Shown: positions 8,534 through 30,521, numbered from the stretch's first letter. The stretch: DNA of 64,000 nucleotides from Alphaproteobacteria bacterium (GCA_963667285.1 OY763326.1:4847546-4911545); one strand, 5' to 3'. Notes: a model not told the origin generated them from the letters alone. Program-made: numbers and translations.

Positions 8534-8555
8534 CCGCCTCTCTCCTTCCCCCGTC

Positions 8556-9863: not shown

Positions 9864-9866
9864 GGC

Positions 9867-10394: not shown

Positions 10395-10546
10395 GAATCC
10401 CCCTATCTCCCGCCGCCCCCGGAGACCGGTCTTGGCGGTTGCGCTCGGGGAACACTTTAGCGGCCGGAGCGAGGCGGTCCAACCGAGACCCGGGGGCGAC
10501 GCCGAGCGTGCTTGTCAGCATGGCGGAGCCGTGGCAGCTTCGCCCC

Positions 10547-10623
10547 GGGCCCGTAGTTCAGCTGGTTAGAACGCGCCGCTCATAACGGCGTTGTCGCAGG
10601 TTCAAGTCCTGCCGGGCCCACCA
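10547..10623 (+). tRNA. tRNA with CAU anticodon, likely tRNA-Ile2 (lysidine) rather than elongator Met
   Basis: 77-nt cloverleaf. Acceptor stem GGGCCCG/CGGGCCC plus ACCA, D-arm GTTCAGCTGGTTAGAAC, anticodon stem CGCCG/CGGCG with loop CTCATAA (anticodon CAT), T-arm GCAGGTTCAAGTCCTGC. G1:C72 is paired, so it is not an initiator. C4:G69 and C5:G68 match TilS identity elements of tRNA-Ile2. Confidence 0.85.
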
Positions 10624-10702
10624 TCCTCCGGCCCGGTCCATCGACGACAGGCTCCGGCGCTGCGGCGGCCTCGCCCGATTCGCGGACGACCGCCGCATCT
10701 GC

Positions 10703-11797: not shown

Positions 11798-11900
11798 GAG
11801 AGCATCTCCCTGCCTGTTGGGTTGCCGCACCGACACGCGCCTGCCTGGGCGCGGATTCTACGGCCCGCGGCGGCGCTTGAACAGGCGGACGGGCAACCGC

Positions 11901-13235: not shown

Positions 13236-13746
13236 CGGATGCCCCCCGGCCGACGAAGTCGCGCGGCCGGCCCAGCGCCTTGGCGGTCAGCAATGCGCAC
13301 ACCGCCACGCCCACGACGCTCACCAGCACCACCAGCGTGCGGACCGGATAGACCGGGATCCGGAGGATGCCCGATCCCTCCTGCTCGCCGATCGCCCAGG
13401 CCTCGATCATGTTGGGCCAGCTGCCGACGGCGATGACCAGGAACAGCCCGCCCGCCAGGATGTAGGACGCCGCCTCGATCAGCGCTTTGCCCCGCAGGCT
13501 CGCATGGTCGTAGAGGATCGTGGTCCGCAACGAGCTGCGCGTCAGGATCGCCAGCGGCAGCTGCAGGAGCAGGATCGCCAGCACCGAGTTGGAGACGATC
13601 TCGTTCGTGCCCGGAAACGGCGCGTGGAACGCCTCCCGTCCGATCACGTCATAGAGGATCAGCAGCGCAATCGAGCCCAGCCAGACGGCGGACAGGATGT
13701 TGAGCCCCCTGGCGAACGCGCCGACGACCCGTTCGGTCCATTCCAT
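13225..13746 (-). CDS. dctQ: TRAP transporter small permease
   Basis: 173-aa four-TM protein, first gene of the dctQMP operon on the minus strand. Confidence 0.8.
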   Translation of the reverse strand: MEWTERVVGAFARGLNILSAVWLGSIALLILYDVIGREAFHAPFPGTNEIVSNSVLAILLLQLPLAILTRSSLRTTILYDHASLRGKALIEAASYILAGGLFLVIAVGSWPNMIEAWAIGEQEGSGILRIPVYPVRTLVVLVSVVGVAVCALLTAKALGRPRDFVGRGASDGA

Positions 13747-14146
13747 GCGACGCCGTCCCCGTCCAGCTCAACCCCTGCAGCCGGCCGAGCGGCCGCATCC
13801 CTTGCGGCGCAAACCTTGCACGCGCAATAGCCCCGCGCAACGCCGTGGCCGAGCGCAGCAGGACCGCCGCCGGCTTGCCGCTGTCCGTGCGATAGACGTG
13901 GACCGGCAGGAACAGCGACAGCTGCTGGTGGCCGTGAACCCGGTCGCAGGTGTCGTCGATGTCGAGCGTGATCGCCGCCGGCGGGGCGGGGCGAATGGTC
14001 GATCCCCGGCAATGCGACAGGGGAACAAGCCCCGCCGCCGTGTTGACCGCCGGGCGCCGCAATCCCTATAAGACACGGGATCCTTGCCCGCCGCACCGCT
14101 GCGTTGGGCGCGCGCGCGGATCGCCATCGACATTCGGGGCAAGGCC

Positions 14147-16255
14147 ATGATCCGAGGTCCGGACAGCGGACGGGGCGGCATCCAGGTCGGCGTCGACATC
14201 GGGGGCACGTTTACCGATATCGTCTTGTGCCGCTCCGACGGCCGCCTTCACGTGAAGAAGGTTTCTTCGACGCCGAGCGATCCATCTCAAGCGGTGATCG
14301 CCGGGCTGGGCGAGGTGCTGGCGGAAAACGGTCTCGATCCCGCCGGGGTCGACACCGTCGTGCACGGTACCACTGTCGGCTCGAACTGCATCCTGGAACG
14401 GACCGGCGCCCGCACCGGCCTGCTGACCACAAAGGGATTCCGCGACGTTCTGGAAATCGGACGTATCCGCACGCCGGACATGTTCGACCTGGAGTGGGAC
14501 AAGCCCCGGCCACTGGTTCGGCGCCGCCTGCGGCTGGAGGCGGACGAGCGCATCGCTGCCGACGGCAGCGTCGTCCGGCCGCTCGACGAGGATTCGGTGC
14601 GGTCCGCGGCCGAGGTCTTCAAGGCCGAAGGCGTCGAGTCGGTGGCCGTGTGCTTTCTCAACAGCTATCGCAACCCGGCTCACGAACAGTCGGCAGCGTC
14701 GCTGCTGCGGCGGATCTGCGCGGACATGAACGTCACCGCCTCCTGCGCCGTGCTGCCGGAGATGAAGGAGTACGAGCGCACCAGCACGACGGTGGTCAAC
14801 GCTTTCATCCAACCGGTCATGCGCCGCTACATCCGCCGTCTCGAGGCGGGGCTCCGGGACATGGGCGTCACGGCTCCGTTGCTGGTCGTGGCCTCCAATG
14901 GCGGGATCCTCAGCGCCGGGGCCATGGCCGAACGGCCGGTATTCGCGGTTGGCTCGGGGCCGGCTGCCGGTGTTGCGGGAGCGGCGCGCCTGGGCAAGGC
15001 GCTGGGCGAGGAGGATCTGATCGTCTTCGACATGGGGGGCACGACGGCAAAGGCATCGCTGGTCGAAGCCGGGCACCTCACCCTTACCTCCGAGTACGAG
15101 TTCCGCGATGGCATCACCACGCCGAGCCGCTTCATCAAGGCCGGCGGCTACATGCTGAAAGTGCCGGCCATCGACATCGCCGAGGTCGGGGCGGGGGCCG
15201 GATCGATCGCCTGGCTCGACGCCGGAGGTCTGATCAACGTGGGACCCCGCTCCGCGGGGGCGGAGCCCGGCCCCGCCTGCTACGGGCTCGGGGGGGACAA
15301 GCCGACGGTCACTGACGCCAATGTGGCGCTCGGATACCTCAACCCGGAGTCGCTCGCCGGCGGCAGGCTGAAGATCGACGCTTCGCTGGCCGAGGCCGCC
15401 ATCTCCGGCACGCTGGGCGCCCTCGGCCTGGGCCTGACGCAGGCCGCATACGGAATCCGCCGGGTGGCCAACGCCAACATGGCGCGCGCCATCCGGGCGG
15501 TCAGCATCGAACGGGGCCGGGATCCCAGGCGGTTCACCATGATCGCGTTCGGCGGCAGCGGGCCTGTGCATGCCGTCGACCTGGCCCGCGCGCTGGAGGT
15601 CCGGCGGGTCCTGATCCCGATCCTGCCCGGCGTCTTCACCGCCGCGGGAATGCTGGCCAGCGACGTCGAGCATCACTTCGTGCAAAGCTTCTCCGGACGG
15701 ATGGACGAGCTGGACGTCACCGGTGCCAACGAGGTTCTCGCCAGCCTGGCCCGATCCGGCGTCAAGGCCCTGGAATCCGATGGCTACGGGCCGGAAGAAC
15801 GGGACATCTCCTATTTGGCCGACCTCCGATTTCTCGGTCAGGGTTCGGAGCTGACGACGCCGGTCGAAGCGGCGCAGATCGACGGGTCGGGGCTGTCCGT
15901 GTTGCGGCAGGCGTTTCTGGACGAGTATGCTCGCACCTACGGGCATCAGGCCGAGGATCCCATCGAGATGGTTAACCTGCGGGTTGTCGCGACGGGCCGG
16001 CGCCCCAACCGGCTGCGATTCGAGGCGGTGACCGGCGCGACCGGGGCGCAGGACATGGAACGGTCCCGGAGGCCGGTATTCGACGGCGAGGCACAGGCGT
16101 TCCGTGACACCGAAGTGCTGCCCCGTTCGGCCTTGCTGGAGAGCAGCCTGGACGGTCCCGTCATCATCGAGTCCTACGATTCGACTGTTGTCGTGCCGGC
16201 CGGCTGCCGGGTCGAGGGCGACGCCGCCGGCAACATGCTGATCGAGGTCGGGTAA
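14147..16255 (+). CDS. hyuA: hydantoinase/oxoprolinase family protein, A subunit (HyuA-like, ATP-dependent)
   Basis: IQVGVDIGGTFTDIVL N-terminal ATPase motif and hydantoinase_A domain pattern. The ORF track extends it to 14084. Confidence 0.85.
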   Translation: MIRGPDSGRGGIQVGVDIGGTFTDIVLCRSDGRLHVKKVSSTPSDPSQAVIAGLGEVLAENGLDPAGVDTVVHGTTVGSNCILERTGARTGLLTTKGFRDVLEIGRIRTPDMFDLEWDKPRPLVRRRLRLEADERIAADGSVVRPLDEDSVRSAAEVFKAEGVESVAVCFLNSYRNPAHEQSAASLLRRICADMNVTASCAVLPEMKEYERTSTTVVNAFIQPVMRRYIRRLEAGLRDMGVTAPLLVVASNGGILSAGAMAERPVFAVGSGPAAGVAGAARLGKALGEEDLIVFDMGGTTAKASLVEAGHLTLTSEYEFRDGITTPSRFIKAGGYMLKVPAIDIAEVGAGAGSIAWLDAGGLINVGPRSAGAEPGPACYGLGGDKPTVTDANVALGYLNPESLAGGRLKIDASLAEAAISGTLGALGLGLTQAAYGIRRVANANMARAIRAVSIERGRDPRRFTMIAFGGSGPVHAVDLARALEVRRVLIPILPGVFTAAGMLASDVEHHFVQSFSGRMDELDVTGANEVLASLARSGVKALESDGYGPEERDISYLADLRFLGQGSELTTPVEAAQIDGSGLSVLRQAFLDEYARTYGHQAEDPIEMVNLRVVATGRRPNRLRFEAVTGATGAQDMERSRRPVFDGEAQAFRDTEVLPRSALLESSLDGPVIIESYDSTVVVPAGCRVEGDAAGNMLIEVG

Positions 16256-16260
16256 GGCGA

Positions 16261-18024
16261 ATGGCGCAGGCCGCCGCCATTCAGGACGCCGTTCGCGGGG
16301 ACATCGACCCGATCACCTTCGCGGTGATCAAGAGCGCCCTGGATTCGATTGTCGACGAGATGGCCTACACGGTGGTTCGCACCGCGCGGTCGGAGATCGT
16401 CAAGGACGTGATGGATTTCTCCGCCGCCCTGTGCGCCGCCGACGGACAGATGGTGGCGCAGGCCAAGACCATCGCGCTGCATCTCGGCGCCGTCCCGGTC
16501 GCCATGGACCACGTGCTCGCGAAGTTCGGCGACGATCTCAACCCCGGCGACATGGTGATCATGAACGACCCCTATGTCGGCGGCATGCACCTGCCCGACA
16601 TCTTCATGTTCATGCCCATCTTCCACGGCGGCAGGCGCCAGGCGATCGCCGTGGTGATCGCCCACCACACCGACGTGGGGGGCCGCGTTCCCGGGTCCAA
16701 CGCCAGCGACTCGACCGAGATCTTCCAGGAAGGCCTGCGCCTGCCGCCCGTGAAGCTCTACGAGGCCGGCATCCCCAACCGGACCCTGTTCGACATCATC
16801 GCCCAGAACGTACGGGTGCCCGACCGGGTGATCGGCGATCTCGGCGCCCAGAGCGCCGCCTGCACGGTGGGTGAGCGGGAATTCCTCAAGCTGGTCGCCC
16901 GCTACGGCGCCGGTCCCGTCCAGGGGTACATGCAGGGGCTGATCGACTATGCCGAGCGCATGACCCGCGAAGAAATCCGCGCCTGGCCGGACGGCACCTA
17001 CGTCTTCACCGACCACATCGACGATGACGGCTTCAGCGACGATCCCATCCCGATCAAGGCGACCGTGACGGTCGACGGCGACCACGTCACCGTGGACTAT
17101 GACGGCAGCGCGCCGCAGGTCCGCGGCGCCATCAACTCGACCCTGTCCTACACCGCCTCCTGCACCTATCTGAGCGTCCGCTGCCTGCTGCGGGGAGACA
17201 TCCCCAACAACGCGGGCGTGTTCCGCTGCGTCACCGTCAGGGCGCCGGAACGGTCGGTCCTCAACCCCGCCCATCCGGGCGCCTGCGCCGCCCGGGCGCT
17301 GACCGGCTACCGGATCGTGGACACGATGTTCGGGGCGCTCGCCCGAGCCGTGCCCGACCGGGTGCCGGCCGGGGGCGAGGGCGGCAACACGGTGGTGTGC
17401 CTCGGCGGATACCGCGAGGACCGCTCGCCCTTCATCATCGTCGACATGCTGTGCGGCGCTTGGGGCGGCCGCCCGGGCAAGGACGGGATCGAGGCGGTCA
17501 CCAACCCGTCGCAGAACCTGTCGAACACGCCCGTCGAGGTGCTCGAGGCCCAGCATCCCGTGCGCATCGAGTCCTACGGCTTCGTCGCCGACAGCTGCGG
17601 CGCCGGCAAGCATCGCGGCGGCCTCGGCATCGCGCGGGAGTACCGCCTGCTCGCCGACGAGGCGACGCTGCAGCTGCGCTCGGACCGCATGAAGTTCCGC
17701 CCCTACGGCCTCGCCGGCGGCCTTCCGGCCCAAGCGACCCGCAACATTCTCAACCCGGGGGACGGCGAGAGGGAGATGCCCAGCAAGTTCGCCCGAACCC
17801 TGACGAAGGGAGAAGTCATCTATCACCGCCAGGCCGGCGGCGGCGGTTTCGGCAACCCCTTCGAGCGCGACCCCCCGCAGGTGCGGGAGGACGTGCTCGA
17901 CGGTAAGATCACGGTCGATTTCGCCCGGCGCGCGCATGGCGTCGCCATCGACCCGAAGACCCTGGCGGTCGACGCGGAGGCGACGCGGTGCCTGCGGGAC
18001 GCCGCCAACCGATCGTGCAAATAG
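16261..18024 (+). CDS. hyuB: hydantoinase B/oxoprolinase family protein (HyuB-like)
   Basis: Hydantoinase_B pattern (DPITFAVIKSALDSIVDEMAYTVVRTARSEIVKDVMDFSAAL...). 5-nt gap after hyuA. Confidence 0.85.
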   Translation: MAQAAAIQDAVRGDIDPITFAVIKSALDSIVDEMAYTVVRTARSEIVKDVMDFSAALCAADGQMVAQAKTIALHLGAVPVAMDHVLAKFGDDLNPGDMVIMNDPYVGGMHLPDIFMFMPIFHGGRRQAIAVVIAHHTDVGGRVPGSNASDSTEIFQEGLRLPPVKLYEAGIPNRTLFDIIAQNVRVPDRVIGDLGAQSAACTVGEREFLKLVARYGAGPVQGYMQGLIDYAERMTREEIRAWPDGTYVFTDHIDDDGFSDDPIPIKATVTVDGDHVTVDYDGSAPQVRGAINSTLSYTASCTYLSVRCLLRGDIPNNAGVFRCVTVRAPERSVLNPAHPGACAARALTGYRIVDTMFGALARAVPDRVPAGGEGGNTVVCLGGYREDRSPFIIVDMLCGAWGGRPGKDGIEAVTNPSQNLSNTPVEVLEAQHPVRIESYGFVADSCGAGKHRGGLGIAREYRLLADEATLQLRSDRMKFRPYGLAGGLPAQATRNILNPGDGEREMPSKFARTLTKGEVIYHRQAGGGGFGNPFERDPPQVREDVLDGKITVDFARRAHGVAIDPKTLAVDAEATRCLRDAANRSCK

Positions 18025-18045
18025 CAGACAAGGGAGGAAGCAAGA

Positions 18046-19053
18046 ATGAGTGCCACGACCAGACGTTTCGCTCTCGCCGCCGCCGGCGGCGCACTGCTTG
18101 GCGTTTTCGCCGCCTCCGCCGTCCAGGCGGCCGATCCCAAGCTTTCGGTCCGCGTCGACTGGACGCCCTGGGGAATGCATGCCGGCCTCCATCTGGCCAA
18201 GCAGAAGGGCTGGTTCAAGGAGGCCGGGGTCGACGTGGAGATCTCCGACGGCAAGGGCTCTTCGCTGCTCATGCAACAGGTGGCGGCCGGTGACGTCGAC
18301 GTGGGCTGGGCCCAGATCGGAACCATGATGGTTGCCGCCTGCAAGGGCCTGCCGGTCAAGGCGGTCGCCGTGCTGGCGCGCGCCGGCGATCTGGGCTTCA
18401 TGGCGGACAAGTCCAAGTACAAGTCGCTCGCCGACCTCAAGGGGCAGAAGCTGGCCTATGCCGCGACCAGCGGCGCCGGTCCCTTCCTGGACACCTTCCT
18501 GAAGGCGGCGGGAGTGTCGAAGCGGGACTTCAAGGTGGTCAACGTCGACGCGTCGTCGCTGGTCAGCGTCTATACCTCGGGCGAGGCCGAGGCGTCGTTC
18601 TCCACGGTCGGCTTCTTCCTGCCCATCGTGTCCAAGAAGCGCCCCGCCTACGGCATCACCATGGCCAGTGTCGGGATCCACATCCCGAGCTACGGGCTGG
18701 TCAGCACCCAGAAGGTAATCGACGCGAAAGCCGAGGCGCTGAAGCGCTTCGTTCCGGTAGTCGGCAAGGCCTGGACCTACATCTTCGAATCGGATGCAAA
18801 TCTCGACGAGGCGATCGACGCCATCGCCAGCCAGCGTCCCAACGAGAAGCTGGACACGGCGGTGATGAAGGGTCAGGCCGCAATCTACAAGGAGCTGGGC
18901 CTGTTCAGCACGAAGCGCACCATGGACAAGACGTTCGGCTGGACCCATCCCGACGACATGGCCGACGCGCACAAGGTGCTGGAGGCGGTCGAGCTGTGCA
19001 AGCCGGGCAAGGCGACCGCCGACTTCTACACCAACCGGTTCGTCGGCGGCTGA
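18046..19053 (+). CDS. ABC transporter substrate-binding protein, NMT1/THI5-like (NitT/TauT family)
   Basis: Signal peptide plus NMT1-like SBP pattern. Strong GGGAGGAAG RBS. Confidence 0.8.
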   Translation: MSATTRRFALAAAGGALLGVFAASAVQAADPKLSVRVDWTPWGMHAGLHLAKQKGWFKEAGVDVEISDGKGSSLLMQQVAAGDVDVGWAQIGTMMVAACKGLPVKAVAVLARAGDLGFMADKSKYKSLADLKGQKLAYAATSGAGPFLDTFLKAAGVSKRDFKVVNVDASSLVSVYTSGEAEASFSTVGFFLPIVSKKRPAYGITMASVGIHIPSYGLVSTQKVIDAKAEALKRFVPVVGKAWTYIFESDANLDEAIDAIASQRPNEKLDTAVMKGQAAIYKELGLFSTKRTMDKTFGWTHPDDMADAHKVLEAVELCKPGKATADFYTNRFVGG

Positions 19054-19123
19054 GCCGTCAGGGCGTCGACACCGGGGGCGGGCTCCGGTCCCGCCCCCCG
19101 GAGCGCCCGAAGAACGCCTGGCG

Positions 19124-19921
19124 ATGGGCAACGGCGCAATCCGCGACGCCTATGTCGAGGTCCGCGACCTGAAGAAGGTCTACGCCTCCACCAAGGGCGA
19201 CTTCACGGCGCTTCAGGGCGTCGATCTCGACATCCGGCAACGCGAGTTCTTGAGCGTGCTCGGACCGAGCGGCTGCGGCAAGAGCACGCTCCTGAAATGC
19301 GTTGCCGGGATCACCGGCATCAGCGGAGGCGCCATCCAGGTCCAGGGACAGCCGGTCGTCGAGCCGCCGGCGGGGATGGGCATCGTTTTCCAGCGGGACA
19401 TCCTGCTGGACTGGCGGAGCAACCTCGACAACGTCCTGCTGCCCATCGAGTTCCGCCGCCTGAACAAGGCCGAATATGTCGGCCACGCCATGGAGCTGTT
19501 CGCCCTGCTCGGGCTCCAGGGGTTCGAGCACCGGCATCCCTGGGAGCTTTCCGGCGGCATGCGGCAGCGGGTGGCGATCTGCCGTGCCCTGATCCAGGAT
19601 CCCGAGCTGCTGCTGATGGACGAGCCGTTCGGGGCGCTCGACGCCCTGACCCGGGACGAGCTCAACCTCGAGCTGCAGCGCATCTGGATGGCCGATGCCA
19701 AGACCGTGATGTTCATCACCCACAGCATCGTCGAATCCGTGTTCCTGTCCGACCGGGTGGCCGTGATGACCTTCACCCCCGGCCGCATCCTCGAAATGAT
19801 CGACATAGACCTGCCGCGCCCGCGCGATCTCGATGTCCGCGAGACCGCGGAATTCGGGCGCTACGTCACCCACATCCGCGACCTGTTCAAGCAGATGGGA
19901 CTCTTCAAGGCCTCCGAATGA
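19124..19921 (+). CDS. ABC transporter ATP-binding protein (NitT/TauT family)
   Basis: Walker A GPSGCGKST, signature LSGGMRQR and Walker B LLLMDEP. Confidence 0.9.
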   Translation: MGNGAIRDAYVEVRDLKKVYASTKGDFTALQGVDLDIRQREFLSVLGPSGCGKSTLLKCVAGITGISGGAIQVQGQPVVEPPAGMGIVFQRDILLDWRSNLDNVLLPIEFRRLNKAEYVGHAMELFALLGLQGFEHRHPWELSGGMRQRVAICRALIQDPELLLMDEPFGALDALTRDELNLELQRIWMADAKTVMFITHSIVESVFLSDRVAVMTFTPGRILEMIDIDLPRPRDLDVRETAEFGRYVTHIRDLFKQMGLFKASE

Positions 19922-20730
19922 ACGCCCTGACGGCATTGCTGCGCGTCATGTCCGGATCGGGACGGGCGGGTTCGGCGTTTCGCGTCGTTGCCGGGTTCTT
20001 CCTCCTGTGGGAGGCGGGGTGCCGCGTCTTCGAGGCGCCCGTGTTCATCCTGCCGCCGCCATCGCTGGTCTTCTTGCGCTTCGCCGACGACCCGGCGCTG
20101 TTCGCCGAGCACACGGCCAACACGCTGTTCTACTGCCTGTTCGGCTTCGGCCTCGCCTTCGCGGCCGGCCTCGCGATCGCCGTCGGCATCGTCTATTCGA
20201 AGTTCCTCGAGAACACCCTCTTCACGCTGCTGGTGAGCCTCAACAGCATTCCCAAGATCACCCTGGCGCCGCTTTTCATCATCTGGATGGGGACCGGCTC
20301 GGCACCCAAGGTGGCGGTGTCGATGACGATCGCCCTGTGGGCCGTGGTGATCGACACGGTGCTCGGCCTGCGCTCGGTGGAACCGGACGTGCTGGACATG
20401 GCCCGTTCGATGCGTGCGTCGAAGCTTCAGGTGCTGTGGAAGATCCGCTTCCCGGCCGCCTTGCCTGCCATGTTCGCCGGAACCAAGGTGGCGATATCCA
20501 TGGCCCTGGTCGGCGTCATCGTCGGCGAGTTCGTGACCACCGACGTGGGCCTCGGCTTCGCCATCATGTCGGGACAGGGGAATTTCGACATCCCCATGGT
20601 CTATGTCTCGATCATCATCCTCGGCGTGCTGGGGACCTTGCTGTTCTACCTCGTCGACATGGTGGAACGCCTGGTCATCCCGTGGCACGTTTCCCAGCGG
20701 GCCGAGCCGGCCGGCCCGGGGAGCGCCTGA
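19918..20730 (+). CDS. ABC transporter permease (NitT/TauT family)
   Basis: Its ATG overlaps the ATPase stop (ATGA). Multi-TM BPD_transp_1-type permease. Confidence 0.85.
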   Translation: MNALTALLRVMSGSGRAGSAFRVVAGFFLLWEAGCRVFEAPVFILPPPSLVFLRFADDPALFAEHTANTLFYCLFGFGLAFAAGLAIAVGIVYSKFLENTLFTLLVSLNSIPKITLAPLFIIWMGTGSAPKVAVSMTIALWAVVIDTVLGLRSVEPDVLDMARSMRASKLQVLWKIRFPAALPAMFAGTKVAISMALVGVIVGEFVTTDVGLGFAIMSGQGNFDIPMVYVSIIILGVLGTLLFYLVDMVERLVIPWHVSQRAEPAGPGSA

Positions 20731-20748
20731 CATGCCGGGCGCTGCGCC

Positions 20749-21558
20749 GTGAGACTGCTGGTCGCCCTTGCCGGCGCCCTGGCGGGCCCGGGACGCACCC
20801 GCACGGTGATCCTGGTCCTGATCGGGAGTCTGGCGCTGTGGGAGGCCGCGACGCTGGCGTTCCGCCCCGAACCCTTCGTGTTGCCCGCGCCCTCCGCGGT
20901 CTTCGCCGAAATCGGCAGCGACATTCCGTGGTACGCCAACCACGCGATGTTCACCCTGGGTGCCACGCTGATGGGCTTCGGCCTTGCCGTGCTGGCGGGG
21001 ACGCTGGCGGCGATCGGGATCGTCTATTCCCGAGTCCTGGAGCACACCCTGTACACCCTGCTGGTCTCCCTCAACAGCATTCCCAAGATCGCGCTCGCAC
21101 CCCTGTTCGTCATCTGGATGTCGACGGGCGCGGCCTCGAAGGTCGCCATCGCCATGACCATCGCCCTGTGGCCGGTGGTCATCGACACGGTGCTTGGCCT
21201 CCGATCGGTCGAGCCGGAAGCGCTGGAGATGGCCCGCTCGATGCGGGCGACCAAATGGCAGGTCTTCTTCAAGATTCGCCTGCCCAACGCCTTGCCCTAC
21301 ATGTTCTCCGGCATGAAGGTCGCCATTTCGATGGCCCTGGTGGGCGCCATAGGCGGCGAGTTCGTGGCGTCGGAGGTGGGTTTGGGCTACGCTATCCTGG
21401 TGGCCCAGGGCCAGTTCAAGACCGACGTCGTGTTTGCCGCCATCATCCTCCTCGGCATTATGGGGACGCTGCTGTTCTTCCTGGTCGTGCTGGTCGAGCG
21501 CTTTTTCGTGACCTGGCACGTCACGCACCGCGCCGACGCGCATATCCACACCGCCTGA
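20749..21558 (+). CDS. ABC transporter permease, second paralogous copy
   Basis: GTG start. Translation is strongly similar to the preceding permease (…LLVSLNSIPKI[T/A]LAPLF[I/V]IWM…TIALW[A/P]VVIDTVLGLRSVEP…). Confidence 0.85.
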   Translation: MRLLVALAGALAGPGRTRTVILVLIGSLALWEAATLAFRPEPFVLPAPSAVFAEIGSDIPWYANHAMFTLGATLMGFGLAVLAGTLAAIGIVYSRVLEHTLYTLLVSLNSIPKIALAPLFVIWMSTGAASKVAIAMTIALWPVVIDTVLGLRSVEPEALEMARSMRATKWQVFFKIRLPNALPYMFSGMKVAISMALVGAIGGEFVASEVGLGYAILVAQGQFKTDVVFAAIILLGIMGTLLFFLVVLVERFFVTWHVTHRADAHIHTA

Positions 21559-21582
21559 GCCACGGGACCGGCAGGAGGCCGC

Positions 21583-22337
21583 ATGACCGAACGCATCTGG
21601 GACAGGTTCCTGACCGAGCGGGACAGGGAGAGGTGTTCGAACGTTCCGGCTACGGCACCCGCGGCGGCCTCGGGAGGCGGCCGGCCGTGCTGGTGATCGA
21701 CATGACCTACGACTTCGTCGGGGACCGGCCCGAACCGGTGCTGGAATCCATCAGGCGCTGGCCCAATTCCTCGGGCGAGGAAGGCTGGGCCGCCATCGCG
21801 GTCATCGAATCGGTGATCACCCGCGCCCGGCGGAAGAACCTGCCCCTCTTCTACACCAAGCCCGGCATCCGGCCGGATGGCTGGGACTGGGGCGGCTGGC
21901 ACTGGAAGAGCTCGCGCATCGAGGAGTGGCTCCAGGAGCCCACCGCCGACTTCGACGGCAACCGCATCGTCGCCCGGCTGGCGCCGGCGGCGCGGGACAT
22001 CGTGATCCCGAAGCACAAGCCGAGCGCTTTCTTCGGCACGCCCCTGATGCCGATGCTCACCCAGCTGGGGGCGGATTCGCTCATCGTCACCGGTTGCACC
22101 ACCAGCGGATGCGTTCGCGCGAGCGTCGTCGATGCGTTCAGCTACAACCTGCGGGTTGCGGTGGTCGAGGAGGGATGTTTCGACCGGGCCCAGGCGTCCC
22201 ATGCCATGACCCTGTGCGACCTCGACGCCAAATACGCCGACGTGCTGCCCGCCACGGAGATCCTGGACTACATGGACGGGTTGTCGGGCGACCTCTTCGT
22301 ACTGCCCGGCGGCGCACCCCCGCCACCGCCGGCGTGA
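21583..22337 (+). CDS. isochorismatase/cysteine-hydrolase family protein with apparent frameshift near 21628-21634 (N-carbamoylsarcosine-amidase-like)
   Basis: ATG 21583 with AGGAGG RBS encodes MTERIWDRFLTERDRE, then the family continuation (E)VFERSGYGTRGGLGRRPAVLVIDMTYDF...LIVTGCTTSGCVRASVVDAF runs in the +2 frame to TGA 22337. The family assignment is good. The integrity of the 5' end is uncertain. Confidence 0.65.
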
Positions 22338-22341
22338 GCCC

Positions 22342-23322
22342 GTGCCTGACGCCCTTCCCGTTTCGGTCTGCTTCTGGAACTACGACCGGACGGCGGCCCT
22401 CGCCGACGGCCGGGCGCCGATGCGGGGCTGCGCGCCCGCCTTCACCATCCTGCCGCCCGAGGAAGCCTTCGCGCGCGCCTTTTCGACCGCCGAGTTCGAC
22501 ATTACCGAACTCTCCTTCAGCAACCACCTGACGGCGTTGAGCCAAGGCCGCGCCGCGTACACGGCAATTCCGGTCTTTCCGTCGCGAGCGTTCCGCCATG
22601 GCAGCCTGTTCGTCCGCACCGACCGGGACATCCGCGAACCGGCCCATCTGAAGGGCAGGCGCATCGGGCTGCAGGAGTACCAGATGACGGCGGCGCTGGT
22701 GGTGCGTGGCATTCTCCGGGACGACTACGGCATCGAACCCGGCGACCTCGCCTGGGTGGTCGGCGGCGTCGAAGAGCCCGGACCGCCGCGCGACCGTACC
22801 GAGATCCCCGGTGTCGCCATCGAGGCCGCGCCACCCGGCGAAAGTCTGGACGCGCTGTTCGCCGACGGCCGGCTGGACGCCCTGCTCGCCCTCCGGCCGC
22901 CGCCCTGCATTGCCGCCGGCGCCTACCCGGTGGGTCGCCTGTTCCCGGACTGGCGGGCGGCGGAGCAGGACTACTATCGGCGCACCGGCCATTTCCCGAT
23001 CATGCACGTCATGGGGGTCCGTCGATCCCTGCTGGACGAGCACCCCTGGCTGGCGCGGTCCGTTTACGATGCCTTCTGCCGGGCCAAGGACATTGCGGTC
23101 GGCGAGCTCGCCGTCATTCAGGCGCCGAAGGTAACCCTTCCGTGGGGCGCGGCGGAGCTGGAGGCGACACGGGCCTTGATGGGTGAAGACATCTGGCCCT
23201 ACGGCGTCGGCGCCAACCGCGAGACCCTGGATCGCCAGATCGGATGGTCCTGCCGGGAGGGCCTGTCGGCGCGGCGTATCCCGGTCGAGGCGTTGTTCGC
23301 CGCCGGCACCCTGGACACCTGA
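22342..23322 (+). CDS. 4,5-dihydroxyphthalate decarboxylase (PhtD)-like / NMT1-fold protein
   Basis: N-terminal VSVCFWNYDRTAALADGRAPMRGCAPAFTILPPEEAFARAFSTAEFDITELSFSNHL fits the PhtD family pattern. Confidence 0.7.
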   Translation: MPDALPVSVCFWNYDRTAALADGRAPMRGCAPAFTILPPEEAFARAFSTAEFDITELSFSNHLTALSQGRAAYTAIPVFPSRAFRHGSLFVRTDRDIREPAHLKGRRIGLQEYQMTAALVVRGILRDDYGIEPGDLAWVVGGVEEPGPPRDRTEIPGVAIEAAPPGESLDALFADGRLDALLALRPPPCIAAGAYPVGRLFPDWRAAEQDYYRRTGHFPIMHVMGVRRSLLDEHPWLARSVYDAFCRAKDIAVGELAVIQAPKVTLPWGAAELEATRALMGEDIWPYGVGANRETLDRQIGWSCREGLSARRIPVEALFAAGTLDT

Positions 23323-23360
23323 GGGAGGCGGGCCCCGATGAGGACGTTGGGACGCAATCG

Positions 23361-23693
23361 ATGAATGACGGTCCCCATGCTTCCGGTCACCACGACTACG
23401 GTGGAAAGCCCGCCGGTCGGATCGACACGACGCTCCACGGCGCCACGGTGTGGGAACAGCGGGTCGATGCGATTCTGGAACTGCTGGGCGATCCGCGCCG
23501 CAGGCTGATGCGAGTCGACGAGTTCCGCCGGATGAACGAGACCATGGCGCCCGAGGACTACGAACGGCTGACCTATTACGAGCGCTGGGTCCACTCCATC
23601 ACGCGGCTGATGATTCGCAAGGGCGTCGTCACGGAAGAGGAGCTCTCCGCAAAGATGTCCGAGATTCGCGCCCGCGGGGACGCGCCCCTGTGA
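23361..23693 (+). CDS. nitrile hydratase superfamily, beta-subunit N-terminal-half protein (ScnB / thiocyanate hydrolase beta-like)
   Basis: MNDGPHASGHHDYGG...WEQRVDAILELLG...YYERWVHSITRLMIRKGVVTEEEL matches the N-terminal domain of NHase beta (MNGxHDxGG...WEKR...YYERW...). It stops after 110 aa. Confidence 0.75.
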   Translation: MNDGPHASGHHDYGGKPAGRIDTTLHGATVWEQRVDAILELLGDPRRRLMRVDEFRRMNETMAPEDYERLTYYERWVHSITRLMIRKGVVTEEELSAKMSEIRARGDAPL

Positions 23694-23706
23694 CGGTTCG
23701 ACGGCC

Positions 23707-24003
23707 GTGACTCCCCGCTACGCCGTCGGCGACGCCATTCGGGTTGGCGATCGCCGGGAACCCGGACATGTGCGAACGCCGGGCTACCTGATGGGCCGGG
23801 AAGGTCGCATCCTGCGGGTCTGCGGCGCCTTTCCCGATCCCGGCCGGCTGGCCGAAGGCGGGCTCGGCCTGCCTTACCGGATGCTCTACCGGGTGGCGTT
23901 CCGGCAACGGGATCTTTGGCCGGACTATGGCGGACCGGATGCCGACGACCTGGTGACCGATCTTTACGAACACTGGCTGGAACCGCGGGACCGGACACCA
24001 TGA
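23707..24003 (+). CDS. nitrile hydratase superfamily, beta-subunit C-terminal-half protein (ScnA-like)
   Basis: YAVGDAIRVGDRREPGHVRTPGYLMGREGRILRVCGAFPDP...YRVAFRQRDLWPD matches the C-terminal SH3-like domain of NHase beta. 13-nt gap after the previous ORF. Confidence 0.75.
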   Translation: MTPRYAVGDAIRVGDRREPGHVRTPGYLMGREGRILRVCGAFPDPGRLAEGGLGLPYRMLYRVAFRQRDLWPDYGGPDADDLVTDLYEHWLEPRDRTP

Positions 24004-24608
24004 ACCATCCTCATCCTCATCCCCACGCCGCGCCGGCGGAGCGGGAGCCCGATCCGCAGATCGCCCTCAAGGAGATGGCCCTGCGGGAACTGCTGATCGA
24101 GAAGGGCGTCTTCACCGCCGCGGACATCCGGCGCGCCATGGAGGCGATGGAGGCCCGAAGCCCGGCGGTGGGCGGGCGAATCGTCGCCCGGGCGTGGCGC
24201 GACCCCGCCTTCAAGCGCCGTTTGCTGACCCATGCCAACGGGGCGGTCGCCGAATTCGGGGTCGCCATGGGCCTCGCCGAGTTGACGGTGGTCGAGAACA
24301 CGCCGGAGCTGCACAATGTCATCGTCTGCACCCTGTGTTCCTGCTACCCCCGGGCGCTGCTCGGAATTCCGCCGAGCTGGTACAAGTCCAAGGCGTATCG
24401 GTCGCGCGTCGTTCGAGAGCCGAGAGCGGTGCTTGCCGAGTTCGGCACCGATTTGCCTGGCGATGTCGTCGTCCGCGTTCACGACAGCACCGCCGATCTC
24501 CGCTACATGGTTCTGCCGCAGCGCCCGGCCGGTACCGATGACTGGGACGACGAGAGAATGGCGGCCCTGGTCACGCGCGATTGCCTGGTGGGGGTAACGG
24601 CGGCTTAG
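24000..24608 (+). CDS. nitrile hydratase alpha-subunit-like catalytic protein, cobalt type (ScnC/gamma-like)
   Basis: Metal-site motif VCTLCSCYPRALLGIPPSWYKSKAYRSRVV (Co-type VCTLCSC, not Fe-type VCSLCSCT) and C-terminal RYMVLPQRPAGTDDW. Its ATG overlaps the previous stop (ATGA). Unusual His-rich N-terminus MNHPHPHPH. Confidence 0.85.
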   Translation: MNHPHPHPHAAPAEREPDPQIALKEMALRELLIEKGVFTAADIRRAMEAMEARSPAVGGRIVARAWRDPAFKRRLLTHANGAVAEFGVAMGLAELTVVENTPELHNVIVCTLCSCYPRALLGIPPSWYKSKAYRSRVVREPRAVLAEFGTDLPGDVVVRVHDSTADLRYMVLPQRPAGTDDWDDERMAALVTRDCLVGVTAA

Positions 24609-25662
24609 AGCACTATCCTATCGAGTTGAATCGATTGTGATTTCCCAAGGTTTTGCGATTCGTGATCCACACTGTCTGCCGGGGAGGAGGCCGGCGGACA
24701 TGTCCCGAGCACTTTCCCTTGATCTTCGCGTACGTGTCGTGGCGGCGGTTGCCGCGGGGTTGAGCCACCGCGCGGCCGCGGCCCGTTTCGGTGTGAGCGC
24801 GGCGAGTATCAGCCGGTGGCGCCGGCGGGCGCGGCTGGAAGGCGATCCCGGCCCGAGGGCGGCGGGCGGCGACCGTCGTTCGGGCCGCATCGAGGCGCAT
24901 CGTGGGCTGGTGCTTGGGCTGGTCGCCGAGACCCCGGACATCACCATCGAGGAGTTGCGCCGCCGGCTTGCCGGGCGCGGGCTGAGCTTCGGCTACGGCA
25001 CCGTCCAGCGTTTCCTGGTGCGCCACAACATGACGCGCAAGAAGAAGACCGGCCATGCCAGCGAGCAGGATCGCCCCGACGTGCTGGCCCGGCGCCAGTC
25101 CTGGCGCGACGGCCAGGCCGGGCTCGATGCGGCGCAGCTGGTCTTCATCGACGAGACCTGGGCCAAGACCAACATGGCGCGTGCTTACGGCCGCGCGCCG
25201 CGCGGCGAGCGCCTGCGCATGAGCCGGCCGCACGGCCACTGGAAGACCTCAACCTTCGTCGCCGGGCTCACCGTGCGCGGCATGATCGCCCCCTTCGTGC
25301 TCGGCCGCCCGATCAACCGTGTCGCCTTCGAGATCTATGTCGAGAAGGTGCTGGTCCCCGAACTGCGTCCCGGCAACATCGTCGTCATGGACAACCTGTC
25401 CAGCCACAAAGGGGAGAGGGTGCGCCAAAGGATCGAGGCCGCCGGCGCCGAGCTCCTCTTCTTGCCGCCCTACTCACCCGACCTCAACCCCATCGAAATG
25501 GCCTTCGCCAAGCTCAAGGCGTTGCTCCGCAAGGCCGCAGAGCGCACCGTCGACGGCCTCTGGGACGCCATCGGAAACATCCTCAAGAGCTTCCAACCCC
25601 AGGAATGCAGAAACTACTTCGCCGCCGCTGGTTATGATCCAACCTGATCGGATACTGCTCTA
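24606..25662 (+). mobile_element. IS630-family insertion sequence (about 1.05 kb) with TA target duplication
   Basis: Imperfect terminal inverted repeats GAGCACTATCCTATCGAGTTGAAT (24608-) and the reverse complement of ...CCTGATCGGATACTGCTC (-25660), about 21 of 26 matches. TA at 24606-07 and 25661-62. Single DDE transposase ORF inside. Confidence 0.8.
24700..25647 (+). CDS. IS630-family (Tc1/mariner-like) DDE transposase
   Basis: N-terminal HTH (LSLDLRVRVVAAVAAGLSHRAAAARFGVSAASISRW) and DDE region (FIDETWAKTNM...VVMDNLSSHK...YSPDLNPIE). Confidence 0.85.
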   Translation: MSRALSLDLRVRVVAAVAAGLSHRAAAARFGVSAASISRWRRRARLEGDPGPRAAGGDRRSGRIEAHRGLVLGLVAETPDITIEELRRRLAGRGLSFGYGTVQRFLVRHNMTRKKKTGHASEQDRPDVLARRQSWRDGQAGLDAAQLVFIDETWAKTNMARAYGRAPRGERLRMSRPHGHWKTSTFVAGLTVRGMIAPFVLGRPINRVAFEIYVEKVLVPELRPGNIVVMDNLSSHKGERVRQRIEAAGAELLFLPPYSPDLNPIEMAFAKLKALLRKAAERTVDGLWDAIGNILKSFQPQECRNYFAAAGYDPT

Positions 25663-30366: not shown

Positions 30367-30521
30367 TCGGTGGACCTCCCCTGATCCGTGTTGCAACCCA
30401 GCGGGTACATCGTTCGGTCCGGCAAGCTAAACAAAACCCCGGGGACGAACAAGAGAATTGCACTTTTGGAAAATTTCGTGATTTTGGAAAAAACGAACGC
30501 CTGACAGCGGGAGGACCGACC

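What the first reader, a model, noticed from the sequence alone, without database searches (positions are those of the whole stretch)
14147..24608. 11-gene co-directional cluster: hydantoinase A/B, amidase-like hydrolase and NHase-like enzyme with a dedicated two-permease ABC transporter (candidate undescribed N-compound catabolic operon)
Genes from 14147 to 24608 are all on the plus strand with gaps of -4 to 70 nt, and several start/stop overlaps (ATGA). They are hyuA, hyuB, an NMT1-like SBP, an ATPase, two paralogous permeases, an isochorismatase-family hydrolase, a PhtD-like protein and the three NHase-like subunits. HyuAB plus an isochorismatase-family amidase is reminiscent of the N-methylhydantoin to N-carbamoylsarcosine to sarcosine route (N-carbamoylsarcosine amidase belongs to this fold). 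Adding a nitrile-hydratase-type enzyme and a PhtD-like protein is not a described combination. The upstream 400-bp region (13747-14146) is a divergent promoter shared with a TRAP operon and has no local regulator.
Basis: inference. Interest (0 to 1): 0.75.

Follow-up and report, generated by a model that had tools for sequence, protein, structure and literature searches.

The report
Conserved mobile nitrile-breakdown gene cluster
Eleven adjacent genes form a gene set that recurs in soil and freshwater bacteria and probably imports a small nitrogen-rich ring compound carrying a cyano group, strips that group off in three steps and opens the ring with ATP; the parts are familiar enzyme types, but I found no description of this combination and the substrate is unknown.

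Summary
Eleven intact plus-strand genes run from 14147 to 24608, with gaps of -4 to +74 nt. They are hyuA, hyuB, an NMT1-type binding protein, an ABC ATPase, two 60%-identical permeases, an isochorismatase-family cysteine amidase, a homologue of 4,5-dihydroxyphthalate decarboxylase (PhtD), and a cobalt-type nitrile hydratase (NHase) whose beta subunit is split into two genes.

The gene set is not a chance juxtaposition. It recurs in metagenomes in at least five different arrangements at 50-95% protein identity. Smaller units also occur alone: hyuAB-tetR, with or without the ABC transporter, is widespread; the amidase-PhtD-like pair occurs with a TRAP transporter; the three-gene NHase occurs by itself.

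My best reading is a modular funnel: nitrile to amide (NHase), amide to acid (amidase), decarboxylation (PhtD-like), plus ATP-dependent opening of a cyclic amide (HyuAB). The substrate is unknown.

The amidase travels with the PhtD-like and NHase genes, not with hyuAB. The "divergent promoter" is mostly a transposase remnant; only the proximal 116 nt are conserved. An IS630 element abuts the 3' end.

Verdict: new variant of a known kind, moderately interesting.

The parts
13770..14010 (-). Remnant of an IS1380-family (DDE_Tnp_1_4) transposase that bounds the cluster on the left
   Evidence: The translation ...ITLDIDDTCDRVHGHQQLSLF... matches PF13701 positions 135-198 with E 5.4e-8. Homology with L058 starts only at 14031.
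14031..14146 (+). Conserved 5' leader and promoter region, with a sigma-70-like TTGACC-N18-TATAAG at about 14043-14073
   Evidence: It is 87-90% identical to the region upstream of hyuA in L058, and the -35 hexamer is invariant. The consensus scanner did not call it because the -10 hexamer ends in G. The promoter assignment is an inference.
14147..16255 (+). hyuA: ATP-binding subunit of a hydantoinase/oxoprolinase-family ATP-dependent lactamase
   Evidence: Pfam Hydant_A_N, Hydantoinase_A and Hydant_A_C. The best PDB match is 7hk5 'N-methylhydantoinase' (471 bits), then caprolactamase 6yra (429 bits). The motifs DIGGTFTD, DMGGT and GAEPGP are present (compared with PMC8453981).
16261..18024 (+). 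hyuB: metal-dependent hydrolytic subunit
   Evidence: Pfam Hydantoinase_B, 612 bits. The residues aligned with CapB metal ligands D41, H99, the next Asp and H124 are conserved (VMDFS, MHLPD, AHHTD).
18046..19053 (+). NMT1/THI5-type periplasmic substrate-binding protein
   Evidence: Pfam NMT1, E 1e-35. The best solved relative is ThiY, the formylaminopyrimidine-binding protein 3ix1, at E 1e-13. It carries an N-terminal TRRF...AVQA signal.
19124..19921 (+). ABC transporter ATPase
   Evidence: Pfam ABC_tran. The closest NCBIfam models are the SaoA, TauB and NtrCD types, all below their cut-offs.
19918..20730 (+). ABC permease 1
   Evidence: Pfam BPD_transp_1. ATGA overlap with the ATPase gene.
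20749..21558 (+). ABC permease 2, a paralogue of permease 1
   Evidence: Pfam BPD_transp_1. It is 60% identical to permease 1. The more distant relatives L060, L062 and L075 have only one permease.
21633..22337 (+). Isochorismatase-family cysteine amidohydrolase, probably the amide-to-acid step
   Evidence: Pfam Isochorismatase. The best solved relatives are N-carbamoylsarcosine amidohydrolase (26st, 1nba) and isochorismatase-family hydrolases 4l07/4l08 and 3ot4/3uao, which I recall as maleamate amidohydrolases. The motifs VIDM (Asp), KHKPSAF (Lys) and TSGCVR (Cys) are present.
22342..23322 (+). Cytoplasmic PhtD-like protein with a binding-protein-type fold, a putative non-oxidative decarboxylase
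   Evidence: PDB 9jp7, 4,5-dihydroxyphthalate decarboxylase, E 5e-87. It is 45-50% identical to annotated PhtD genes on plasmids. It has no signal peptide. It always lies directly upstream of the NHase genes.
23361..23693 (+). NHase beta subunit, N-terminal half, as a separate gene
   Evidence: Pfam NHase_beta_N. The residues aligned with beta-Arg52 and beta-Glu56 of the P. putida enzyme are conserved.
23707..24003 (+). NHase beta subunit, C-terminal half, as a separate gene
   Evidence: Pfam NHase_beta_C. The residues aligned with beta-His147 and beta-Arg149 are conserved (GHVRTP).
24000..24608 (+). NHase alpha subunit, cobalt type
   Evidence: Pfam NHase_alpha, 267 bits. TIGR01323 scores 251.2 bits against a cut-off of 249.85; the thiocyanate hydrolase gamma model scores 217 against 291. 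The motif VCTLCSCYP is present. The best PDB matches are cobalt-type NHases 4ob1 and 3qxe.
24637..25647 (+). IS630-family transposase that bounds the cluster on the right
   Evidence: NF033545 at 209 bits (cut-off 100) and Pfam DDE_3. Homology with L058, L004 and L001 stops at 24598-24606.

Best explanation
The eleven genes are one functional catabolic unit assembled from smaller modules.

Proposed steps:
1. An NMT1-type ABC importer takes up a small polar compound that carries a cyano group and a cyclic amide. The compound is probably an N-heterocycle or a hydroxy-aromatic with a neighbouring carboxylate.
2. The cobalt-type three-subunit nitrile hydratase hydrates the C-N triple bond to a primary carboxamide.
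3. The isochorismatase-family cysteine amidase hydrolyses the amide to the carboxylate and releases ammonia.
4. The PhtD-like enzyme removes that carboxyl as CO2.
5. HyuAB uses ATP to open the cyclic amide ring of the parent compound.

Shown: the gene identities, intact catalytic motifs, and recurrent linkage of the modules. Inferred: the order of the steps, the decarboxylase activity, and the nature of the substrate.

The cluster sits between insertion-sequence remnants and has moved between genomes.
For: Linkage of the full gene set. The closest NHase relatives in 5.8 billion proteins (alpha 70-92% identical) carry the same gene set in at least five arrangements:
- identical 11-gene order in L003/L004 and L150-L154
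- ABC, isochorismatase, PhtD-like, NHase, with convergent tetR-hyuB-hyuA, in L060/L061
- ABC, isochorismatase, PhtD-like, NHase, GST, hyuAB, tetR in L062
- the same without GST in L075
- PhtD-like and NHase beside tetR-hyuBA in L059

Derived copies:
- L058 (hyuAB-NHase) keeps remnants of the binding-protein and PhtD-like genes, so it is a deletion derivative.
- The NHase genes in L001 still carry the last 40 nt of the PhtD-like gene.

Sub-modules that exist alone:
- hyuAB-tetR, with or without an NMT1-type ABC transporter, accounts for most of 80 metagenome loci.
- Isochorismatase (53% identical) plus PhtD-like (57% identical) occurs with a TRAP transporter on 23 contigs.
- hyuAB plus PhtD-like occurs without a visible NHase in L086 and L100, though both contigs are short.
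- Three-gene NHases occur alone in L063 and many genome loci.

NHase-linked HyuB sequences fall in three separate places of a neighbour-joining tree. This fits recruitment of one HyuAB function by a moving isochorismatase-PhtD-like-NHase block.

Catalytic residues are intact in all the enzymes.

Family precedents, from established knowledge:
- NHase converts a nitrile to an amide.
- Isochorismatase-like hydrolases hydrolyse primary amides and ureides (maleamate, N-carbamoylsarcosine, nicotinamide, biuret).
- PhtD decarboxylates a hydroxylated vicinal dicarboxylate.
- HyuAB-type enzymes hydrolyse 5-oxoproline, N-methylhydantoin and caprolactam with ATP (PMC8453981).
Against: - No substrate is identified and nothing was measured.
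- The HyuB subfamily occurs without an NHase in 79 of 80 sampled loci, so HyuAB clearly has a life independent of nitriles. It could act on a different compound from the other module.
- Decarboxylase activity of the PhtD-like protein is inferred from about 45% identity to one solved enzyme. It could instead act on a different group or serve as a binding partner.
- The L150 relative has an in-frame 222-nt deletion in the isochorismatase gene, and L058 lacks the isochorismatase, PhtD-like and ABC genes. Not all steps are kept everywhere.
- The neighbour-joining tree has no support values.
- The co-occurrence counts come from a modest number of independent contigs.
Confidence: 0.5

Rival explanations
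1. Two independent catabolic modules sit side by side only because mobile elements gather catabolic genes into islands. One module is a lactam uptake and ring-opening unit (hyuAB plus the ABC transporter). The other is a nitrile or amide removal unit (isochorismatase, PhtD-like, NHase). They act on unrelated substrates.
For: Each module occurs alone far more often than together. The window cluster is bracketed by IS remnants. Copies 99.7-99.9% identical sit in three different flanks next to resolvases, integrases and transposases. The window region is a mosaic catabolic island with further IS elements.
Against: The modules are joined again and again in different orders and orientations at 50-95% identity, which argues for selection on the combination. 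The ABC transporter genes lie between hyuB and the isochorismatase in the window-type cluster, but upstream of the isochorismatase and away from hyuAB in L060, L062 and L075, so the transporter serves the combined unit. Gaps of -4 to 74 nt with no terminator-like sites suggest one transcript. More distant NHase and hyuAB pairs (alpha 60-70%, HyuAB 38-40% identical) are also neighbours in L013, L019 and L053.
Confidence: 0.25
2. It is a creatinine or N-methylhydantoin-type route in which HyuAB opens a hydantoin ring and the isochorismatase-family enzyme acts as an N-carbamoyl amidase on the product. The NHase and PhtD-like enzymes act as accessory steps, for example hydration of an N-cyano group to an N-carbamoyl group.
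For: The best solved relatives are deposited as 'N-methylhydantoinase' for both HyuA and HyuB (7hk5; 471 and 325 bits). For the isochorismatase the best is 'N-carbamoylsarcosine amidohydrolase' (26st, 1nba; E 3.5e-25). NHases are reported to hydrate N-cyanoimines to N-carbamoylimines (PMC11573777).
Against: The matches are remote, and the PDB holds very few HyuAB or isochorismatase relatives to choose from. Only 4 of 80 loci with a HyuB of this subfamily have any isochorismatase within 10 kb, three of them at 29% identity, yet this route would need the amidase whenever hyuAB is present. The isochorismatase is always next to the PhtD-like gene, and the pair exists without hyuAB. The isochorismatase is nearly as close to 4l07/4l08 and 3ot4/3uao, which I recall as primary-amide (maleamate) hydrolases. 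The model gives the PhtD-like protein no role.
Confidence: 0.12
3. The three NHase-like genes encode a thiocyanate hydrolase (also three subunits), and the cluster handles thiocyanate or a related sulfur-cyano compound.
For: The three-subunit layout, with the beta subunit split, is the same as in thiocyanate hydrolase. The alpha subunit matches the thiocyanate hydrolase gamma model at E 1.6e-64.
Against: The alpha subunit passes the NHase alpha equivalog cut-off (251.2 against 249.85) and fails the thiocyanate hydrolase gamma cut-off (217 against 291). Both beta halves are closer to cobalt-type NHase beta (3qxe) than to the thiocyanate hydrolase beta and alpha chains. No sulfur-oxidation or carbonyl-sulfide genes lie nearby. 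Split-beta true NHases are known.
Confidence: 0.03

Closest known systems
Three-subunit cobalt nitrile hydratases: toyocamycin nitrile hydratase ToyJKL of Streptomyces rimosus, the Streptomyces canus CGMCC 13662 enzyme, and the plasmid enzyme of Microvirga flocculans
   Same: One alpha subunit plus two small proteins corresponding to the N- and C-terminal halves of a normal beta subunit. The sizes match: toyocamycin NHase has subunits of 21.2, 10 and 11.4 kDa (PMC8574189), and here the genes encode 202, 98 and 110 aa. The metal motif is the cobalt type. No activator gene follows, as reported for S. canus (PMC11573777). A Streptomyces plasmid carries the same beta-N, beta-C, alpha gene order.
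   Different: The alpha subunit is only about 55% identical to the Streptomyces and Microvirga plasmid copies. No NiCoT cobalt transporter is adjacent here. The context differs: those enzymes lie in a nucleoside-antibiotic biosynthesis cluster or stand alone, not with hyuAB, an isochorismatase and a PhtD-like gene. I could not obtain the ToyJKL sequences, so direct relatedness is untested.
Classical nitrile hydratase/amidase nitrile-catabolic operons (Rhodococcus, Pseudomonas)
   Same: The logic of nitrile to amide to acid plus ammonia, carried out by adjacent genes.
   Different: The amidase here is an isochorismatase-family cysteine hydrolase, not a signature amidase. No aldoxime dehydratase or activator is present. 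A decarboxylase homologue, an ATP-dependent lactamase and a dedicated ABC importer are added.
ATP-dependent lactam hydrolases of the hydantoinase/oxoprolinase family: N-methylhydantoinase, caprolactamase CapAB, 5-oxoprolinase
   Same: Two-subunit A/B architecture. The ATP motifs in A and the metal ligands in B are conserved. The protein is closer to these hydrolases than to acetone or acetophenone carboxylases. No carboxylase gamma subunit is present.
   Different: It falls below the equivalog cut-offs for caprolactamase (568 and 349 bits against 1000). It belongs to a large uncharacterised subfamily usually followed by a TetR gene and an NMT1-type ABC transporter.
4,5-dihydroxyphthalate decarboxylase PhtD/Pht5 (PDB 9jp7)
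   Same: Full-length homology (E 5e-87, roughly 45-50% identity) and a cytoplasmic binding-protein-type fold.
   Different: It is not in a phthalate operon: no phthalate dioxygenase or dihydrodiol dehydrogenase is nearby. Its orthologues travel with an isochorismatase-family amidase.
Isochorismatase-like hydrolase followed by a decarboxylase, as in triuret/biuret catabolism (TrtA, TrtB, BiuH), and the isochorismatase-fold enzymes N-carbamoylsarcosine amidase and maleamate amidohydrolase
   Same: A cysteine hydrolase of this fold releases ammonia from a terminal amide and a decarboxylation follows (PMC12625717). The Asp-Lys-Cys residues are conserved.
   Different: The biuret hydrolase model scores only 46.6 bits against a cut-off of 370. 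The partner decarboxylase belongs to a different family.

Membership tests
Nitrile hydratase, cobalt type | Alpha subunit with the metal-binding motif C-(T/S)-L-C-S-C, with Thr and Tyr (VCTLCSCY) marking the cobalt type | tested here: met
   VCTLCSCYP is present in the alpha subunit. The best PDB matches are cobalt-type enzymes. That the motif marks the cobalt type is established knowledge.
Nitrile hydratase, cobalt type | The alpha subunit reaches the curated equivalog score (TIGR01323) | tested here: met
   251.2 bits against a cut-off of 249.85, a narrow pass.
Nitrile hydratase, cobalt type | Beta-subunit arginines that hydrogen-bond the oxidised cysteines, and second-shell Glu and His | tested here: met
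   The residues aligned with P. putida beta-Arg52, Glu56, His147 and Arg149 are conserved.
Nitrile hydratase, cobalt type | Hydration of a nitrile to an amide; cobalt content; oxidised cysteines | not testable with these tools
   This needs a purified enzyme.
Three-subunit NHase (ToyJKL / S. canus type) | Beta subunit encoded as two separate genes, with no activator gene | tested here: met
   The two beta halves lie in different reading frames with stop codons between them. The same holds in all close relatives. No accessory-protein gene follows alpha; an IS630 element is there instead.
Thiocyanate hydrolase | The gamma subunit reaches the curated equivalog score (TIGR03887) | tested here: not met
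   217.4 bits against a cut-off of 291.45. The beta halves score higher against NHase beta than against the thiocyanate hydrolase chains.
Hydantoinase/oxoprolinase-family ATP-dependent hydrolase (HyuAB) | A subunit with ASKHA-type ATP motifs (DxGGTxTD, DxGGT, GxxPGP); B subunit with Asp/His metal ligands | tested here: met
   DIGGTFTD, DMGGT and GAEPGP are present in HyuA. D, H..D and H are conserved in HyuB against CapB (motifs from PMC8453981).
Caprolactamase CapAB | Equivalog scores NF050156 and NF050157 | tested here: not met
   568 and 349 bits against cut-offs of 1000.
N-methylhydantoin / N-carbamoylsarcosine route | HyuAB and the N-carbamoylsarcosine amidase are functionally coupled, so they should co-occur | tested here: not met
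   Only 4 of 80 loci with a HyuB of this subfamily hold an isochorismatase gene within 10 kb. The isochorismatase instead pairs with the PhtD-like gene.
N-methylhydantoin / N-carbamoylsarcosine route | Substrate specificity for N-methylhydantoin and N-carbamoylsarcosine | not testable with these tools
   There is only remote similarity to the solved enzymes.
Isochorismatase-like cysteine hydrolase | Asp-Lys-Cys catalytic triad | tested here: met
   VIDM, KHKPSAF and TSGCVR align with the corresponding stretches of 26st and 4l07. That these stretches hold the catalytic triad is from my own knowledge of the family. Shorter automatic gene calls in relatives would remove the Asp.
4,5-dihydroxyphthalate decarboxylase (PhtD) | Full-length homology to the solved enzyme | tested here: met
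   9jp7, E 5e-87, residues 5-326 aligned to 24-346.
4,5-dihydroxyphthalate decarboxylase (PhtD) | Location in a phthalate catabolic operon, and activity on 4,5-dihydroxyphthalate | tested here: not met
   I saw no phthalate dioxygenase or dehydrogenase genes next to it, in the window or in the related loci I examined. The activity itself cannot be tested here.
Classical NHase/amidase operon | A signature amidase (PF01425) adjacent to the NHase, often with an aldoxime dehydratase and an activator | tested here: not met
   None of the eleven proteins matches these families.
Binding-protein-dependent ABC importer, NMT1 type | An exported binding protein, an ATPase and two membrane domains | tested here: met
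   the signal sequence is visible.

The most novel reading that the evidence does not exclude
The cluster is a dedicated, horizontally spreading pathway that removes the cyano group, carbon included, from a natural or man-made cyano-substituted cyclic amide and then opens the ring. The chemistry would be nitrile to carboxamide to carboxylate to the parent lactam, followed by ring opening. It would mineralise a compound class for which no bacterial genes are known.

Candidate substrate families that exist in all four oxidation states:
- 7-cyano-7-deazapurines (preQ0, 7-amido-, 7-carboxy- and 7-deazaguanine), which are the known substrates of the other three-subunit NHase
- cyanopyridones such as ricinine or nudiflorine, together with the nicotinamide-derived pyridone carboxamides

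Nitrile pesticide metabolites are a third option, given the insertion-sequence-driven spread in farmland and lake samples.
Probability: 0.3. Interest if true: 0.75.

Novelty: new variant of a known kind. Interest (0 to 1): 0.55.

Why it matters
If the funnel model is right, this cluster defines a four-enzyme route for complete removal of a cyano substituent and ring opening. It would use an isochorismatase-type amidase and a PhtD-type decarboxylase in roles not previously linked to nitrile hydratases. It would also give a first physiological context to a very widespread, uncharacterised subfamily of ATP-dependent HyuAB lactamases.

The binding protein and the three small enzyme modules are easy to express, so the substrate question can be tested directly.

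The nearly identical copies in different mobile-element contexts suggest recent spread. That matters for the fate of nitrile-bearing natural products or agrochemicals in soil and fresh water.

Tried and rejected
- Literature searches for any paper combining nitrile hydratase with hydantoinase, isochorismatase or dihydroxyphthalate decarboxylase found none. The one paper with NHase and isochorismatase together concerns unrelated genes in nitrifiers.
- The plasmid collection has no close relative of the cluster. The best hit is 74% DNA identity over hyuB alone, in Paracoccus pTAV3, which lacks an NHase. The flanks give no plasmid match.
- The GTDB species representatives hold no NHase alpha more than 65% identical. 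I therefore found no genome-based representative of the cluster, and the host genus of the window stays unknown.
- The thiocyanate hydrolase reading was rejected on curated scores.
- The neighbouring divergent TRAP operon was tested as a possible partner, because L058 has a TRAP operon after the NHase. The proteins are only 35% identical, so I rejected it.
- No riboswitch or other Rfam family lies in the leader.
- The consensus promoter scan found nothing. The conserved TTGACC-N18-TATAAG was seen by eye and by alignment.
- I looked for an integrase at the putative island end near 60.7 kb and found none.
- I could not obtain ToyJKL sequences, so closeness to the toyocamycin enzyme is untested.
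- I did not run structure prediction, because sequence matches to solved structures were already strong.

Full report

Yes. The window is GC-rich (about 0.67), so mechanical ORF lists are crowded.
- hyuA, 14147-16255
- hyuB, 16261-18024
- NMT1-type binding protein with a twin-arginine-like signal, 18046-19053
- ABC ATPase, 19124-19921
- two permeases, 19918-20730 and 20749-21558, 60% identical to each other
- isochorismatase-family hydrolase, 21633-22337
- protein with no strong Pfam match, 22342-23322, which hits the solved 4,5-dihydroxyphthalate decarboxylase 9jp7 at E 5e-87
- NHase beta N-terminal half 23361-23693, beta C-terminal half 23707-24003, and alpha 24000-24608

The gaps between genes run from -4 to 74 nt, with two ATGA overlaps. 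GC3 is 0.73-0.92 in every gene. No terminator-like site above shuffle expectation separates the genes.

The isochorismatase start must be GTG 21633, which has a GGGAGAG ribosome-binding site. The later ATG used by automatic callers in related contigs would remove the catalytic Asp.

**2. Are the enzymes intact?**

- HyuA has the three ATP motifs described for caprolactamase CapA. HyuB keeps the residues aligned with the CapB metal ligands.
- HyuAB is closer to ATP-dependent lactam hydrolases than to acetophenone or acetone carboxylases. The PDB scores are 471/325 bits for 7hk5 'N-methylhydantoinase' and 429/267 bits for caprolactamase 6yra, against 290/179 and 218/63 bits for the carboxylases. 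It is below the caprolactamase equivalog cut-offs.
- The isochorismatase keeps Asp, Lys and Cys. Its nearest solved relatives are N-carbamoylsarcosine amidohydrolases and 4l07/4l08 and 3ot4/3uao, which are deposited only as isochorismatase-family hydrolases and which I recall as maleamate amidohydrolases.
- The NHase alpha subunit has the cobalt-type VCTLCSCY motif. It just passes the NHase alpha equivalog cut-off and fails the thiocyanate hydrolase one.
- The two beta halves keep the residues aligned with beta-Arg52, Glu56, His147 and Arg149 of the P. putida enzyme. They are closer to NHase beta than to the thiocyanate hydrolase chains.

**3. The three-gene NHase is a known type.**

Toyocamycin nitrile hydratase is an (alpha-beta-gamma)2 enzyme with subunits of 21.2, 10 and 11.4 kDa (PMC8574189). 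Streptomyces canus and Microvirga flocculans have one alpha and two beta pieces and no activator (PMC11573777). A Streptomyces plasmid shows the same beta-N, beta-C, alpha gene order, and a Microvirga plasmid shows beta, alpha, beta. Both have a NiCoT cobalt transporter nearby, which is absent here.

Among the relatives recovered from genome representatives, the split beta is the rule in the proteobacterial loci closest to the query. Most actinobacterial loci have a fused beta.

**4. Is the cluster a unit?**

Same order:
- The closest alpha subunits in the 5.8-billion-protein collection are 70-92% identical.
- Where contigs are long enough, they carry the same partners. L003 and L004 have the identical eleven-gene order.
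- L150-L154, from five sequencing runs, have the same order at 91-93% DNA identity.

Rearranged:
- L060/L061 have ABC, isochorismatase, PhtD-like, NHase, with tetR-hyuB-hyuA convergent.
- L062 has ABC, isochorismatase, PhtD-like, NHase, GST, hyuAB, tetR.
- L075 has the same without GST.
- L059 has PhtD-like and NHase next to tetR-hyuBA.
- One contig has the NHase next to a convergent isochorismatase gene.

Apparent exceptions that turn out to be derived:
- L058 (hyuAB, NHase, then a TRAP operon) keeps short remnants of the binding-protein and PhtD-like genes between hyuB and beta-N.
- The NHase in L001 still carries the last 40 nt of the PhtD-like gene.
- More distant NHases (alpha 60-70% identical) also sit near much more divergent hyuAB genes in L013, L019 and L053.

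**5. The cluster is modular.**

A metagenome scan with HyuB returned 80 loci at 65-73% identity, the same range as the HyuB of L059, L060 and L062. Only one of them (L075) has the NHase block. Thirty-four have a TetR gene directly after hyuB. About twenty have an NMT1-type ABC transporter whose binding protein is only 36-42% identical to the one here. Paracoccus versutus pTAV3 is an annotated example.

In a neighbour-joining tree the NHase-linked HyuB sequences fall in three separate places among NHase-free ones (no support values).

Conversely, an orthologous isochorismatase (53% identical) plus PhtD-like (57% identical) pair occurs on 23 contigs with a divergent TRAP transporter and no NHase or hyuAB. 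L086 and L100 show hyuAB next to a PhtD-like gene with no NHase in view, though both contigs are short. Three-gene NHases also occur alone.

The nesting is: amidase plus decarboxylase homologue; then the NHase; then hyuAB and a transporter. That is the pattern expected of a funnel in which peripheral steps convert substituted compounds to a common core substrate.

**6. Most likely mechanism.**

The steps are import by the ABC system, nitrile to carboxamide (NHase), carboxamide to carboxylate plus ammonia (isochorismatase-family amidase), loss of CO2 (PhtD-like), and ATP-dependent opening of a cyclic amide (HyuAB).

The amidase's nearest solved relatives act on amides that have a carboxylate close by, and PhtD acts on a vicinal dicarboxylate. 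The intermediate may therefore be an ortho-carbamoyl carboxylate that becomes a vicinal dicarboxylate. This last point rests on my own knowledge of those enzymes and is an inference.

I put about 0.5 on this general scheme and about 0.85 on the weaker claim that the eleven genes are a selected functional unit. The substrate is unknown.

Candidates that exist as nitrile, amide, acid and parent lactam:
- the 7-deazaguanine series (preQ0 and its relatives)
- cyanopyridones and pyridone carboxamides
- nitrile pesticide metabolites, which are possible given the mobile-element context

None of these could be tested here.

**7. Rivals.**

- Two unrelated modules brought together by mobile elements: 0.25.
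It is favoured only by the names of the best solved relatives and disfavoured by the co-occurrence data.
- Thiocyanate hydrolase: 0.03.

**8. Boundaries and mobility.**

- Colinear homology with L004 covers exactly 14173-24598 at 78% identity.
- Homology with L058 begins at 14031, 116 nt upstream of the hyuA ATG. This stretch contains a conserved TTGACC-N18-TATAAG.
- Further upstream, about 13770-14010 encodes an IS1380-family transposase fragment on the minus strand.
- An IS630 transposase gene starts 28 nt after the alpha stop codon.
- L002, L003 and L004 carry copies 99.7-99.9% identical in three different flanks, beside a resolvase, transposases, an integrase fragment and a group II intron reverse transcriptase.
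- The upstream region is therefore not a promoter shared with the TRAP operon, and the cluster has moved recently.

**9. Novelty.**

Every component family is known, and NHase-amidase operons are classical. What I found no description of is this combination:
- an isochorismatase-type amidase and a PhtD-type decarboxylase homologue tied to a three-subunit NHase
- the link to an uncharacterised but very common HyuAB subfamily
- a dedicated importer

I rate it a new variant of a known kind, with interest 0.55.

Noticed in passing
window 10547-10623 and 60738-60760: A tRNA-Met gene lies between two TRAP operons. Its last 23 nt recur at 20 of 23 positions (the last 14 exactly) about 50 kb downstream. 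These could be the ends of a genomic island that contains the cluster. No integrase was found near either end.
   Followed up: partly
window 30351-38913: A second catabolic block lies here. It comprises a three-subunit molybdenum hydroxylase (FAD, 2Fe-2S and Mo subunits, 30351-34224), an XRE-cupin regulator (34233-34889, -), an S15-family hydrolase (34933-36768, -), a second isochorismatase only 22% identical to the first (36711-37517) and an IS4 transposase (37693-38913, -). Such hydroxylases typically act on N-heteroaromatic rings. This block is not conserved next to the cluster elsewhere.
   Followed up: partly
window 39020-39290, 44017-44299, 53540-53823: Three copies of a repeat (83-95% identical; about 280 nt in the two longer copies) contain an internal inverted repeat (GCGGCGCTGTCCGGCCGACAGGG and its complement). 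This may be a miniature mobile element or an intergenic repeat family.
   Followed up: no
window 49443-56097 and L004 15939-20618: This part of the window is 81-89% identical in DNA to genes lying about 5 kb downstream of the cluster in metagenome contig L004. The genes are luciferase-like monooxygenases, an alpha/beta hydrolase, a CN_hydrolase and an Amidohydro_2. That identity is higher than for the cluster itself (78%). The two genomes are therefore related, and the cluster has a different position in each. The window also has a tandem duplication of the luciferase-like gene (53863-54579 and 55030-55746).
   Followed up: partly
L150 about 5221-5225 (window 21808-22029): A close relative of the cluster (91-93% DNA identity), seen in five sequencing runs, has an in-frame 222-nt deletion inside the isochorismatase gene.
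   Followed up: partly
L058 9100-9400: The short spacer between hyuB and the NHase genes is a patchwork of remnants of the binding-protein start and two pieces of the PhtD-like gene. It records a deletion of about 5 kb from a window-type cluster.
   Followed up: yes
L001 10620-18023: Next to a relocated copy of the NHase genes (92% identical) lies a convergent operon. It holds a Bmp-type (nucleoside-type) ABC transporter, a distant isochorismatase (28% identical), an 89-aa protein and a distant Hydantoinase_B (30% identical) with no visible A subunit. An integrase lies beyond it.
   Followed up: no
window 5063-13746: Upstream of the cluster there are two TRAP permease gene sets and two DctP-type binding-protein genes (8556-10394, 10703-13746 and 6201-7214). 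A Rieske oxygenase (7361-8533, -) and a metallo-beta-lactamase-fold protein (5063-6016, -) lie among them.
   Followed up: no
window 1-2000: GC content drops to 0.54 here, against about 0.67 elsewhere in the window.
   Followed up: no
L062 10648-11418; L060 1803-2651; L058 18943-19689: A glutathione S-transferase gene recurs near the cluster. In L062 it overlaps the NHase alpha stop codon. L059 and L060 also carry an aldo-keto reductase and an S9-family hydrolase. These may be accessory steps; all are absent from the window.
   Followed up: no
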